Part shown: one piece after another, positions 38,974 to 41,621 of the stretch
Numbering within the stretch: position 1 is the first letter of the stretch
Layout of the letters: each line of letters starts with the position of its first letter
IMG/VR virus record: IMGVR_UViG_644736364_000004
Reading direction: 5' to 3' (one strand)
Origin: a virus
Lineage: Duplodnaviria; Heunggongvirae; Uroviricota; Caudoviricetes
DNA: 41,621 bases
Translations under genes and position numbers: made by a program
The notes under the pieces: model-generated
What the model was told of the DNA's origin: nothing
Database searches by the model: none
What the model saw: only the letters and a program-made list of their open reading frames with translations

Positions 38974-41040
38974 GTGAATATGGCAGTACAGATTTCAGGC
39001 GTGCTGAAAGACGGTGCAGGAAAACCGATACAGAACTGCACCATTCAGCTCAAAGCAAAACGTAACAGCACCACGGTTGTGGTGAACACGGTGGCCTCAG
39101 AAAATCCGGATGAAGCCGGACGTTACAGCATGGATGTCGAGTATGGCCAGTACAGCGTTATCCTGCTGGTTGAAGGTTTTCCGCCTTCACATGCCGGGGC
39201 CATCACCGTGTATGAGGATTCTAAGCCGGGGACATTGAATGATTTTCTGGGCGCTGCAACAGAAGATGATGTTCGTCCGGAGGCACTGTATCGTTTTGAA
39301 AAGATGGTGGAAGAGGTGGCACGCAACGCTGAAGCCGCCTCTCAGAGCGCAGCGGCAGCAAAGAAATCAGAAACAGCAGCGGCATCGTCCAGGAATGCGG
39401 CGAAAACATCAGAGACGAATGCAGGTAACAGCGCGAAAGCGGCAGCTTCTTCAAAAACAGCCGCACAAAACGCAGCAACAGCGGCAGAACGTTCAGAGAC
39501 AAATGCCCGTGCGTCAGAAGAAGCCTCCGCAGACAGTGAAGAGGCTTCCCGCCGTAATGCAGAGTCAGCCGCTGAAAATGCCGGAGTCGCCACCACAAAA
39601 GCGCGGGAGGCCGCAGCAGACGCAACAAAGGCCGGGCAGAAAAAGGATGAGGCTCTGTCGGCAGCGACACGGGCTGAAAAGGCGGCAGACCGCGCAGAAG
39701 TCGCAGCGGAAGTGACTGCAGAGCCCTATGCGAATATAGTGCCGCCGCTGCCTGATGTGTGGATACCGTTTAACGATTCACTGGATATGATTGCGGGTTT
39801 TTCTCCGGGCTATAAAAAAATAGCTATTGGTGACGATGTGGTTCAGGTCGCCAGTGATAAACAGGTTAATTTCAGTCGCGCATCAACGGCAACATATATC
39901 AACAAATCTGGCGAACTGAAAACGGCGGAAATTAATGAGCCGCGATTTGAGTGTGATGGCCTGCTTATTGAGGGACAAAGAACGAACTACATGCTCAATT
40001 CGGAAAGTCCAGCCAGCTGGGGGAAGTCATCAAACATGGATGTGCCCGAAACCGGGACAGATAGTTTTGGTTTTACTTATGGAAAGTTTGTCTGCAACGA
40101 TTCTCTGGTTGGGCAAACTTCGGCTATTAATATGGCATCAATTGCTGCAACAAAGTCAGTTGATGTCTCAGGCGATAACAAGTACGTGACAACCTCATGC
40201 CGTTTTAAAACAGAACGACAGGTAAGGTTACGTATACGGTTTGATAAGTATGATGGTAGTGCAACAACTTTTCTTGGCGATGCGTACATTGATACGCAAA
40301 CGCTTGAAATTAATATGACAGGTGGGGCTGCCGGCAGAATTACGGCACGAGTCAGGAAGGATAAGACCACAGGCTGGATTTTTGCAGAGGCAACGATTCA
40401 GGCAATTGATGGTGAGTTAAAAATAGGCTCTCAGATACAGTATTCTCCTGAGCGGGGTGGGGCAACAGTATCTGGTGACTATATTTATCTTGCCACCCCA
40501 CAAGTAGAGAATGGGCCGTGTGTATCATCATTTATTATTTCAGGAGGCAGCGCAACGACAAGAGCCAGTGATTTGGTTAGTATCCCCACCAGAAATAATC
40601 TTTATAAGTTACCATTTACTTTTTTACTTGAGATTCATAAAAACTGGGATATTGCACCAAACGCCGCACCCCGCGTGTGGGATATAGCAGCAGCCAATAC
40701 CGGGCAATCAGCAATTGCAGCAATCAACAGAGGTAGTGGTAAGTTATATATGAGTCTGTCAAACCCTTCAGGCTTGTATGTTAATAGCGCAGCGACAGAT
40801 GTATTTGCAGAGAAAACCACATTTGGATGTATTGCAAAAGCTGATGGTCACTTTCATGTGGTGACAAATGGTAAAGCGGTTAATGAAGTTTATTGTGAAT
40901 ATAATGGTGTGACCGCTGATAAAAATATCCGATTTGGAGGGCAGACGAATACTGGAGAACGACATCTGTTTGGCCATATTCGCAATTTCCGCATATGGCA
41001 TAAAGAATTAAATGACAGGCAATTAAAAGAGGTCGTATGA
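38974..41040 (+). CDS. stf: Side tail fibre protein (Stf-like N-terminus, distinct C-terminal domain), 688 aa
   Basis: N-terminus MAVQISGVLKDGAGKPIQNCTIQLKAKRNSTTVVVNTV… resembles lambda Stf; Ala/Ser-rich repetitive shaft; the C-terminal ~430 residues are unrelated to lambda Stf and end in a lectin/LamG-like-looking motif (GHIRNFRIWHKELNDRQL). Confidence 0.8.
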   Translation: MNMAVQISGVLKDGAGKPIQNCTIQLKAKRNSTTVVVNTVASENPDEAGRYSMDVEYGQYSVILLVEGFPPSHAGAITVYEDSKPGTLNDFLGAATEDDVRPEALYRFEKMVEEVARNAEAASQSAAAAKKSETAAASSRNAAKTSETNAGNSAKAAASSKTAAQNAATAAERSETNARASEEASADSEEASRRNAESAAENAGVATTKAREAAADATKAGQKKDEALSAATRAEKAADRAEVAAEVTAEPYANIVPPLPDVWIPFNDSLDMIAGFSPGYKKIAIGDDVVQVASDKQVNFSRASTATYINKSGELKTAEINEPRFECDGLLIEGQRTNYMLNSESPASWGKSSNMDVPETGTDSFGFTYGKFVCNDSLVGQTSAINMASIAATKSVDVSGDNKYVTTSCRFKTERQVRLRIRFDKYDGSATTFLGDAYIDTQTLEINMTGGAAGRITARVRKDKTTGWIFAEATIQAIDGELKIGSQIQYSPERGGATVSGDYIYLATPQVENGPCVSSFIISGGSATTRASDLVSIPTRNNLYKLPFTFLLEIHKNWDIAPNAAPRVWDIAAANTGQSAIAAINRGSGKLYMSLSNPSGLYVNSAATDVFAEKTTFGCIAKADGHFHVVTNGKAVNEVYCEYNGVTADKNIRFGGQTNTGERHLFGHIRNFRIWHKELNDRQLKEVV
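39300..39720 (+). repeat. Low-complexity Ala/Ser/Glu-rich coding repeats within the tail-fibre shaft
   Basis: Reiterated SETNA…SA…AA… units; this region generates the spurious overlapping ORFs on both strands (39221-39715). Confidence 0.5.
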
Positions 41041-41315
41041 AAGATTTAACTTTGAAGTTTCATGACAAACTGCAGTTTAAGGCCTTCCTGTCATCTCTTG
41101 ACTGGGAGGAGGATGAAGACCTCCAGAATAAACTGTTAGTCGATGAAATTGGTTTCACCTACACAGAAACAGGGGTAACAGAAGAGGGAGAACCTGTCTG
41201 TGTCCGGAATGACGGTTATTTTGTCAACATTCGCATTCTTGATGACTTGTTTGATGTTTCTGTATTCTCTGATTATGTCGTGGAGCTGGAAACACCGCTT
41301 CGGGAATGGAGCTGA
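41037..41315 (+). CDS. Hypothetical acidic protein, 92 aa, directly downstream of the tail fibre
   Basis: ATGA overlap with the stf stop; does not resemble Tfa tail-fibre assembly proteins. Confidence 0.5.
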   Translation: MKDLTLKFHDKLQFKAFLSSLDWEEDEDLQNKLLVDEIGFTYTETGVTEEGEPVCVRNDGYFVNIRILDDLFDVSVFSDYVVELETPLREWS

Positions 41316-41327
41316 AAGGAGGAAATA

Positions 41328-41621
41328 ATGGATATAAGCCCCTTACTTCATGCGCTTTGTGCTGTGGCTGCGCAGATACTGGTTGGTCTTTTTACCGGAA
41401 ACTGGGCTTACGGAGCGATAGCCGGTTGTACGTTCTTCATTGCGCGTGAACATACCCAGGCAGAATATCGCTGGATTGAAATGTTCGGGCATGGCAAGCG
41501 AATGAATATGCCGTGGTGGGGCGGTTTTGATCCGCGAGCTTGGGATGTGGCAAGCCTGATGGATTTTGCTGTGCCGGTGGTGGCGTGTCTGCTGGTCTGG
41601 CTGTTGGTTAATCGTGGGTGA
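41328..41621 (+). CDS. Hypothetical small membrane protein, 97 aa (about three predicted TM segments)
   Basis: Hydrophobic stretches LLHALCAVAAQILVGLFTG, WAYGAIAGCTFFIA and LMDFAVPVVACLLVWLLV; stop codon at the window end. Confidence 0.5.
   Translation: MDISPLLHALCAVAAQILVGLFTGNWAYGAIAGCTFFIAREHTQAEYRWIEMFGHGKRMNMPWWGGFDPRAWDVASLMDFAVPVVACLLVWLLVNRG

What the first reader, a model, noticed from the sequence alone, without database searches (positions are those of the whole stretch)
41037..41621. Two unknown small genes in place of the tail-fibre assembly gene, one a polytopic membrane protein
Seen in sequence: a 92-aa acidic protein whose start overlaps the stf stop, then a 97-aa protein with about three hydrophobic helices. 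Neither resembles Tfa. Established: the region downstream of tail-fibre genes in lambdoid prophages is a frequent site for accessory genes. Inference: the first may be a fibre-specific chaperone; the membrane protein could be an exclusion or receptor-masking factor. Function is entirely open.
Basis: inference. Interest (0 to 1): 0.45.

Follow-up and report, generated by a model that had tools for sequence, protein, structure and literature searches.

The report
Tail-fibre partner gene plus membrane moron
Two small genes ending the tail operon of a phage-21-type prophage are real: the first always accompanies one kind of sugar-binding tail-fibre tip and probably helps build or cap it, while the second is an unrelated, widely conserved tiny membrane protein whose role is still unknown.

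Summary
orfA (41037-41315, 92 aa, pI 4.1) starts on the stf stop codon (ATGA). orfB (41328-41621, 97 aa, three predicted helices) follows 12 nt later behind a GGAGG site. The DNA is 100% identical to classical phage 21, where both are annotated without function. Neither matches Tfa or any Pfam, NCBIfam, PADLOC or PDB entry.

The two genes have separate histories. orfA homologues abut the same distal fibre module (Stf residues 255-688) in lambdoid, T1-like, T5-like, Queuovirinae, Dhillonvirus and rV5-like phages, with or without orfB. It is therefore a fibre-linked partner, most likely a trans-acting assembly factor or tip cap.

orfB belongs to a large, strongly conserved family (about 435 clusters at 50% identity; R40, E41 and W72 invariant). 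It sits after unrelated receptor-binding genes in sipho-, myo- and podoviruses. It is an autonomous moron in a P22-like phage and a fixed chromosomal gene in Aeromonas and sphingomonads. It does not co-vary with fibre type, so receptor masking is unlikely. A generic membrane-level role, such as exclusion or envelope change, is my best guess, held with low confidence.

orfB is not part of an operon running past the window: convergent sitDCBA follows.

The parts
38974..41040 (+). stf, side tail fibre gene (688 aa by the GTG start; phage 21 annotates an ATG 2 codons in)
   Evidence: Pfam phage_tail_N at 9.8e-69 on residues 3-133; weak Laminin_G_3 on 562-683; NCBIfam GTA_spike_fiber on 331-531; no Peptidase_S74. 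Annotated 'side tail fiber' in phage 21.
39736..41037 (+). Distal fibre module (Stf residues 255-688), the unit with which orfA travels
   Evidence: 54% identical over 437 residues to the C-terminal part of a 704-aa fibre with a different N-terminus in another prophage type. tblastn finds it in 228 phage records.
41037..41315 (+). orfA, 92-aa acidic fibre-partner protein (phrog_1361)
   Evidence: AF2 pLDDT 89.6, beta-alpha-alpha-beta-beta. No fold match in PDB.
41037..41040 (+). ATGA overlap of the stf stop and the orfA start (translational coupling)
   Evidence: The genes also abut (overlap or 1-nt gap) in loci L079, L082, L083, L087 and L088.
41318..41322 (+). GGAGG ribosome-binding site of orfB, 5 nt before the ATG
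   Evidence: also annotated as an RBS in phage 21.
41328..41621 (+). orfB, 97-aa three-helix membrane protein (phrog_1443; UniRef name 'Ybl63')

Best explanation
The two ORFs are real genes with unrelated histories.

orfA is the dedicated partner of the distal, lectin-like module of the side tail fibre. It is translated in step with stf through an ATGA overlap, and a homologue sits directly after the same module in many phage families. Most likely (inferred) it acts in trans on the C-terminal end of the fibre, either as an assembly chaperone or as a small protein that stays on the tip as a cap. It would then fill the place Tfa has in lambda without being related to Tfa.

orfB is a three-helix inner-membrane protein from a large, strongly conserved family. 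It is a portable accessory gene (moron) that lands at the end of receptor-binding-protein operons in phages of all three tail types and is also fixed in some bacterial chromosomes. It works on its own at the cell membrane. The most likely benefit to a phage (inferred, low confidence) is a receptor-independent block of incoming phages or an alteration of the envelope.

Shown: gene reality, the orfA-module association, the independence of orfB, and its conservation. Inferred: both mechanisms.
For: orfA:
- A homologue with 57% identity directly follows a fibre whose last 437 residues are 54% identical to Stf 255-688, in a different prophage type that lacks orfB.
- tblastn finds orfA in 145 phage genomes, always under or next to a tail-fibre annotation. 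These include virulent Drexlerviridae, T5-like phages, Queuovirinae and Dhillonvirus.
- In 79 of 80 IMG/VR loci the module abuts orfA.
- In two phages where tblastn missed orfA, the abutting small ORF is a remote homologue (hhalign E about 4e-16).
- Stf has no intramolecular chaperone domain and no Tfa gene follows it.
- orfA identity tracks the last 48 residues of Stf (Spearman 0.78) better than the central part (0.27).
- Fibres sharing only the central GTA-spike-like domain lack orfA.

orfB:
- 577 close homologues and about 435 clusters at 50% identity, all stand-alone proteins of about 100 aa.
- R40, E41 and W72 are invariant, and H8, Q44, A45, E46 and P83 nearly so, across 89 diverse members.
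- 38 of 80 E. coli loci carry orfB after other fibre genes without orfA.
- It sits after a P22-type tailspike, preceded by a terminator and then 190 nt of AT-rich spacer.
- It also sits after tfa in phiHAP-1, after an S74 fibre in a P2-like prophage, and after a 2520-aa GpJ in Comamonas.
- It is syntenic in five Aeromonas genomes (four species) with no phage genes nearby, and lies among housekeeping genes in sphingomonads.
Against: orfA:
- No homology or fold similarity to any known chaperone.
- The correlation with the Stf C-terminus could reflect physical linkage alone.
- In virulent phages a second fibre gene often follows orfA, which fits an adaptor role as well.
- A distant relative of the central domain, the RcGTA head spike fibre, was made alone in E. 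coli and bound cells (PMC10218006).

orfB:
- No experimental or homology evidence for exclusion, and no PADLOC hit.
- In this window it has no promoter or terminator of its own, so it may be made only late in lytic growth.
- Strict conservation and chromosomal copies are unusual for exclusion proteins.
- Topology is unresolved. K+R counts favour a cytoplasmic conserved loop, whereas the phage 21 record's TMHMM note implies a periplasmic one.
Confidence: 0.5

Rival explanations
1. orfA is a structural fibre component: a small adaptor that docks a second, distal fibre protein onto the first, rather than a folding chaperone.
For: In T5-like IrisVonRoten and Lindwurm, T1-like tonn, rV5-like CarlMeissner and prophage L079, orfA lies between the module-bearing fibre and a further fibre-like gene. 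The IrisVonRoten record calls it 'tail fiber protein'. PMC11990801 describes a T-shaped fibre attached to that proximal fibre.
Against: Phage 21 and its lambdoid relatives keep orfA at 90-100% identity although no second fibre gene follows; the next gene is orfB and then convergent sit genes.
Confidence: 0.25
2. orfB is a small membrane enzyme or binding protein that alters a conserved envelope lipid or lipid-linked glycan precursor (lysogenic conversion), rather than a blocker of DNA entry.
For: A near-invariant set of polar residues: H8, R40, E41, Q44, E46 and W72, with D79 invariant among the 43 closer members. It occupies the slot between tailspike and int, which holds gtrABC in P22 (my own knowledge of P22). 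In Aeromonas it lies beside a RIO1-like kinase and two lipid A acyltransferases. Chromosomal copies imply a cell-autonomous role.
Against: No sequence or fold similarity to any enzyme. The Aeromonas neighbours are on the opposite strand. Sphingomonad neighbours are unrelated housekeeping genes.
Confidence: 0.25
3. orfB is a holin-like or lysis-timing membrane protein.
For: Its size and three helices resemble class I holins (my own knowledge). In a Comamonas prophage it directly precedes three co-directional small ORFs (125, 99 and 183 aa) and an overlapping 171-aa ORF that I read, without any family search, as a possible lysis cassette. One of 89 members gives a weak Phage_holin_8 hit.
Against: Phage 21 has its own well-studied lysis cassette elsewhere (established knowledge). 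The family sits among housekeeping genes in chromosomes. A strictly conserved polar motif is atypical of holins. 88 of 89 members give no holin hit.
Confidence: 0.1
4. orfB is functionally tied to tail fibres, either needed for fibre assembly or masking the cognate receptor.
For: It is almost always the gene right after fibre, tailspike or fibre-assembly genes in phages.
Against: Near-identical orfB follows three unrelated fibre types. orfA-module pairs exist without it in virulent phages. There are chromosomal copies without any phage genes. It has no lipobox or signal typical of Cor or Llp.
Confidence: 0.07

Closest known systems
Lambda Tfa / Mu gpU / P2 G tail-fibre assembly proteins (Pfam Caudo_TAP)
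   Same: orfA occupies the same position directly after the fibre gene, is small, is tightly coupled to the fibre gene, and travels with the fibre's distal end.
   Different: No sequence match and no fold match. The partner fibre ends in a lectin/LamG-like domain, not a Tfa-dependent tip.
Trans-acting fibre-tip proteins such as T4 gp38 and the 'transient chaperone caps' of Alteromonas phages (cited in PMC11990801 as Gonzalez-Serrano et al. 2023)
   Same: A small protein encoded right after the fibre gene that could both aid folding and remain on the tip.
   Different: No homology was tested or found. Whether orfA is present in the virion is unknown.
Inner-membrane superinfection-exclusion morons (HK97 gp15, P22 SieA, T4 Imm)
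   Same: orfB is a small polytopic membrane protein carried as an accessory gene in or beside the tail module. In phage Gally it is an independent unit behind a terminator.
   Different: No homology to any annotated exclusion family in PHROGs or PADLOC. It is far more conserved and also chromosomal. In this window it lacks its own promoter. No exclusion phenotype is known.
Receptor-blocking lipoproteins Cor and Llp, encoded next to receptor-binding genes
   Same: Position next to host-recognition genes.
   Different: orfB has no lipobox, is predicted to be an integral membrane protein, and does not co-vary with the receptor-binding protein.
Conversion and defence slots of P22 (gtrABC) and P2 (Z/fun)
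   Same: orfB sits in the equivalent slots of a P22-like phage and of P2/VP882-like phages.
   Different: No sequence relation to Gtr proteins or any glycosyltransferase. The comparison is positional only and rests on my own knowledge of P22 and P2 maps.

Membership tests
Tfa-type tail-fibre assembly proteins (Caudo_TAP) | Sequence match to the family profile | tested here: not met
   No Pfam, NCBIfam or PHROG tail-fibre-assembly hit for orfA at E<=1.
Tfa-type tail-fibre assembly proteins (Caudo_TAP) | Encoded immediately downstream of the fibre gene and inherited with the fibre's distal end | tested here: met
   ATGA overlap; 79 of 80 loci; the same arrangement across phage families.
Tfa-type tail-fibre assembly proteins (Caudo_TAP) | Required for folding or trimerisation of the fibre tip | not testable with these tools
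   Needs a deletion, co-expression, or a multimer structure prediction.
Intramolecular-chaperone fibres (Peptidase_S74) | C-terminal S74 domain in the fibre itself | tested here: not met
   Stf has no S74 hit, so a trans factor is plausible.
Cor/Llp receptor-blocking lipoproteins | Signal peptide with a lipobox cysteine | tested here: not met
   The orfB N-terminus MDISPLLHALCAV has Leu, not Gly/Ala/Ser, before Cys11. The model is a three-helix membrane bundle.
Cor/Llp receptor-blocking lipoproteins | Co-variation with the cognate receptor-binding protein | tested here: not met
   orfB copies 95-100% identical follow three unrelated fibre types.
Inner-membrane superinfection-exclusion proteins (HK97 gp15, SieA, Imm) | Small polytopic inner-membrane protein encoded by a moron | tested here: inconclusive
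   The membrane character is met. Moron architecture is seen in Gally but not in this window.
Inner-membrane superinfection-exclusion proteins (HK97 gp15, SieA, Imm) | Blocks DNA entry of superinfecting phage | not testable with these tools
   No experiment was found in the literature searched.
Class I holins | Three transmembrane helices, gene adjacent to the endolysin, match to a holin family | tested here: not met
   No endolysin lies nearby here or in phage 21. Only 1 of 89 members gives a weak holin hit.
PHROG phrog_1361 and phrog_1443 (families of unknown function) | Full-length profile match | tested here: met
   orfA 8.1e-42 over 1-91 of 92; orfB 2.4e-58 over 1-96 of 97.

The most novel reading that the evidence does not exclude
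orfB is the founding example of an unrecognised family of tiny (about 100 aa) membrane proteins with an enzyme-like or ligand-binding invariant core (H8, R40, E41, Q44, E46, W72). The family would act on a universally conserved membrane component, for example an undecaprenyl-phosphate-linked intermediate or a general DNA-entry step. Phages of all three tail types have repeatedly captured it and parked it behind their receptor-binding genes. In parallel, orfA would define a new, Tfa-unrelated class of trans-acting chaperone or cap for lectin-tipped lateral fibres, shared by T1-, T5-, rV5- and lambda-like coliphages.
Probability: 0.2. Interest if true: 0.7.

Novelty: new variant of a known kind. 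Interest (0 to 1): 0.45.

Why it matters
The fibre module with its orfA partner is present in well over a hundred coliphages, including model collections (BASEL) and classical phage 21. Fibre swapping for host-range engineering will fail if an unrecognised partner gene is left behind. Knowing that orfA belongs to the module, and apparently to its C-terminal end, is directly useful.

orfB is one of the most conserved small genes at the ends of tail operons, and about a third of complete E. coli genomes carry it or its immediate neighbours (1903 of 5426 match the 922-nt stf-end/orfA/orfB probe), yet it has no name in Pfam. A simple expression experiment could reveal either a new receptor-independent exclusion mechanism or a new small membrane enzyme.

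Tried and rejected
- Profile searches of both proteins against Pfam, NCBIfam and PADLOC gave nothing usable.
- The only recurrent Pfam signal for orfB is a sub-threshold similarity to the PhoR N-terminal membrane hairpin, in 6 of 89 members with best E 0.003. I treat it as helix-hairpin resemblance, not homology.
- PDB sequence searches with both family profiles found nothing at E<=10.
- The AlphaFold database library was not available.
- Literature searches on phage 21, Ybl63, BASEL lateral fibres, DT57C LtfA/LtfB, Tai systems and RcGTA head spikes found no functional statement on either gene.
- I rejected the idea that orfB belongs with sitABCD: the sit genes are convergent, and orfB occurs widely without them.
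- I rejected an LPS-specific target for orfB because sphingomonads carry the family. That they lack LPS is my own knowledge.
- The small gene before the RcapMu fibre and the 163-aa gene after the S-CAM4 fibre are not detectable orfA relatives.
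Full report
**What is there.** The ORF list places a 92-aa ORF at 41037..41315 and a 97-aa ORF at 41328..41621, both on the + strand. They lie downstream of a 688-aa ORF at 38974..41040 and the 1160-aa J homologue at 35439..38921.

The sequence shows the orfA ATG overlapping the stf TGA (ATGA at 41037-41040), with AGAGG upstream. orfB is preceded by GGAGG five bases before its ATG. The orfB TGA is the last three bases of the window. orfA is acidic, with 22 D+E against 8 K+R and pI 4.1. orfB is hydrophobic, with strong hydrophobic stretches at both ends and a weaker one in the middle.

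The 688-aa protein carries the prophage tail-fibre N-terminal domain (9.8e-69), a GTA head-spike-fibre-type domain on residues 331-531, and a weak LamG-like match on 562-683. It has no Peptidase_S74 domain.

**Identity of the region.** Bases 40700-41621 are 100% identical to Escherichia phage 21 (OL657228), ev017 and PhiR63_2. They match prophages in 1903 of 5426 complete E. coli genomes.

In phage 21 the two genes are CPT_21_23 'hypothetical protein' and CPT_21_24 'putative membrane protein'. The next genes are sitD, sitC, sitB and sitA on the opposite strand, followed by small ORFs, attP and int.

The phage 21 genome paper assigns no function, although HHpred was part of its annotation pipeline (PMC9119081). 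The window begins with the integrase gene and ends on the orfB stop. Many IMG/VR prophage contigs end 3 nt after the same stop, so the end of the window is a prophage-boundary call.

**No known family.** orfA matches phrog_1361 (8e-42) and orfB matches phrog_1443 (2.4e-58); both are of unknown function. Pfam, NCBIfam and PADLOC give nothing significant. Family profiles find no PDB sequence at E<=10.

AlphaFold2 models are confident:
- orfB has pLDDT 92.3 and helices at 4-23, 26-52 and 74-96.
- orfA has pLDDT 89.6 and a strand, two helices and a long beta hairpin.

**orfA travels with the distal fibre module.**
- A 57%-identical orfA homologue lies in a different kind of prophage, between head and tail-tube genes. 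It starts on the last base of the stop codon of a 704-aa fibre. That fibre's last 437 residues are 54% identical to Stf 255-688, while its N-terminal part is unrelated. There is no orfB there; the next gene carries an S74 domain.
- tblastn finds orfA in 145 phage genomes, each time under or beside a tail-fibre annotation. These include virulent T1-like, T5-like, Queuovirinae and Dhillonvirus phages, with the same abutting arrangement in IrisVonRoten and tonn.
- The module itself is in 228 phage records.
- In two module-positive phages of kinds that are missing from, or sit at the weak end of, the orfA tblastn listing, the small ORF abutting the module is a remote orfA homologue. These are T5-like Lindwurm and rV5-like CarlMeissner, with hhalign E about 4e-16 and probability 98.7%. 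An Aeromonas T5-like phage is borderline (E 5e-4).
- Among 80 IMG/VR loci found with the orfA profile, 79 have the module ending at the orfA start.

Fibres that share only the central GTA-spike-like domain have no detectable orfA. This applies to RcapMu, cyanophage S-CAM4 and a Chelativorans prophage.

In the 2E9-type lambdoid phages the centre of the module is replaced (about 30% identity), while the last part of stf and orfA stay at 91-96%. Over 53 distinct pairs, orfA identity correlates with the last 48 Stf residues (Spearman 0.78) far better than with the central part (0.27) or the N-terminal part of the module (0.31). This fits a partner that recognises the conserved C-terminal end. Physical linkage of adjacent DNA would give the same trend, so it is supporting evidence only.

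**What orfA most likely does.** Several facts point the same way:
- The fibre has no intramolecular chaperone and no Tfa.
- orfA sits where Tfa sits in lambda.
- It is translationally coupled to stf.
- It is kept in virulent phages, which argues for a virion-assembly or virion-function role rather than lysogenic conversion.

The best reading is a trans-acting assembly factor or a tip-bound cap.

The main rival is an adaptor for a second fibre. In several virulent phages a further fibre gene follows orfA, and PMC11990801 describes a T-shaped fibre attached to the IrisVonRoten proximal fibre, whose C-terminal galectin-like domain protrudes. That paper does not discuss the small protein. Phage 21 has no second fibre gene yet keeps orfA intact, which favours a role tied to the first fibre.

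The related RcGTA head spike fibre binds capsule and was produced alone in E. coli (PMC10218006). This suggests a glycan-binding role for the module. It is also mild evidence that the central domain itself does not need a helper.

**orfB is independent of orfA and of fibre type.** The family is large. There are 577 homologues in the first search, spanning Escherichia, Salmonella, Leclercia, Citrobacter, Aeromonas and Comamonas at 57% identity or more. At 50% identity there are about 435 clusters, all stand-alone proteins of about 100 aa.

Conservation is striking. There are 25 invariant positions among 43 sequences. Across 89 diverse members R40, E41 and W72 are invariant, and H8, Q44, A45, E46 and P83 are nearly so.

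In 80 E. coli IMG/VR loci, 42 have orfA upstream. In 37 of the other 38, orfB (95-97% identical) directly follows one of two other genes: a 346-aa protein or a 227-234-aa one.

Elsewhere orfB homologues follow:
- a P22-type tailspike, just before int;
- a tail-fibre assembly gene, just before the sheath gene, in Halomonas phage phiHAP-1;
- an S74-type fibre in a P2-like Leclercia prophage;
- a 2520-aa GpJ-like protein in Comamonas;
- fibre or fibre-assembly-like genes in Pantoea, Comamonas and Chelativorans prophages.

In the P22-like phage Gally the tailspike is followed by a strong intrinsic terminator, 190 nt of AT-rich spacer with a promoter-like site, and a ribosome-binding site. That is the layout of an autonomous moron. 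In this window no promoter or terminator was detected around orfB.

The family is also chromosomal. In five Aeromonas genomes (four species) it sits at one locus, between a pirin gene and a RIO1-like kinase, two lipid A acyltransferase genes and SLAC1, with no phage genes nearby. In sphingomonads it lies among varied housekeeping genes such as ligA, pnp, nadA and prmA.

**What orfB most likely does.** Because it does not co-vary with the receptor-binding protein, a receptor-specific mask of the Cor or Llp kind is unlikely. It also lacks a lipobox. Its recurrent position matches known accessory-gene slots: the gtrABC slot of P22 and the Z/fun slot of P2 (my own knowledge of those maps). It can also stand alone. 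Both points indicate a cell-autonomous membrane function.

I rank the options as follows:
- A receptor-independent exclusion or other generic membrane-level role comes first. About 0.3 of my probability for orfB goes to exclusion specifically.
- A small envelope-modifying enzyme or ligand-binding protein comes second. The invariant His/Arg/Glu/Asp core and the chromosomal copies fit this well.
- A holin-like role comes third.
- A fibre-linked role comes last.

Topology is unsettled. Across 223 members the loop between helices 2 and 3 carries 5.4 K+R on average, against about 0.5 in each tail. That favours N-in with the conserved loop cytoplasmic. The TMHMM note in the phage 21 record (two TMDs, N-in, C-in) would put that loop in the periplasm.

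**Verdict.** The chaperone-type guess for orfA gains real comparative support. The pair is not a unit.

Both families are already catalogued as unknowns (PHROGs; the phage 21 annotation). What is new here:
- recognition of an orfA-fibre-module pairing across phage families;
- the breadth, conservation and dual phage-and-chromosome life of the orfB family.

Noticed in passing
window 41619-41621 (end of window); loci L172-L247: The window stops exactly on the orfB stop codon. Dozens of IMG/VR prophage contigs end 3 nt after the same stop. In phage 21, convergent sitDCBA, several small ORFs and attP lie beyond it. Prophage-boundary callers seem to cut these prophages short at the sit operon.
   Followed up: partly
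L002 3554-5970 (phage Lambda_4C10; also 4A7, 1W, 3W): Three 'mobile element protein' genes (141, 116 and 537 aa) are inserted inside the 3' end of stf, about 140 nt before its stop. They look like an IS66-type arrangement, though I did not test that. The fibre is truncated while orfA and orfB downstream stay intact.
   Followed up: no
window about 40000-40930; L005 3091-5112: The central part of the Stf distal module is swapped between phage-21-type and 2E9-type lambdoid phages (about 30% identity). The N-terminal 300 residues, the last roughly 40 residues, orfA and orfB stay near-identical. This is a clean mosaic exchange of the presumed receptor-binding core.
   Followed up: partly
window 15009-16151 (- strand): A 380-aa ORF with a full-length Gram-negative porin domain (Porin_1, 2e-151) lies inside the prophage. 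It looks like a phage-borne OmpC/NmpC/Lc-type porin, a known kind of lysogenic-conversion gene.
   Followed up: no
L004 8001-11645 and L012, L014, L018, L019: The chromosomal Aeromonas orfB homologue lies next to a RIO1-like kinase and two lipid A acyltransferase genes, all convergent with it. Synteny holds in five genomes from four species. This may or may not hint at an envelope-lipid connection.
   Followed up: partly
orfB residues 7-62 (window 41346-41513): There is a weak, sub-threshold but recurrent similarity to the N-terminal membrane hairpin of the sensor kinase PhoR (PF11808), seen in 6 of 89 family members with best E 0.003. It is probably only a shared two-helix hairpin shape.
   Followed up: partly
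L082 5289-7013; L088 4090-5850; L079 6341-7369; L083 5292-5966: In virulent T5-like and T1-like phages and in one prophage type, the orfA homologue is followed by a second fibre-like gene. This gives the order fibre, orfA, second fibre, as expected for branched lateral fibres.
   Followed up: partly
L123 around 4001: In one IMG/VR locus with a 99-100% identical Stf module, the reading frame I translated from the expected orfA start scored only 11% identity, although the orfA profile search matched this locus at 96%. This may be a frameshift or indel in orfA, or a mis-set start in my script.
   Followed up: no
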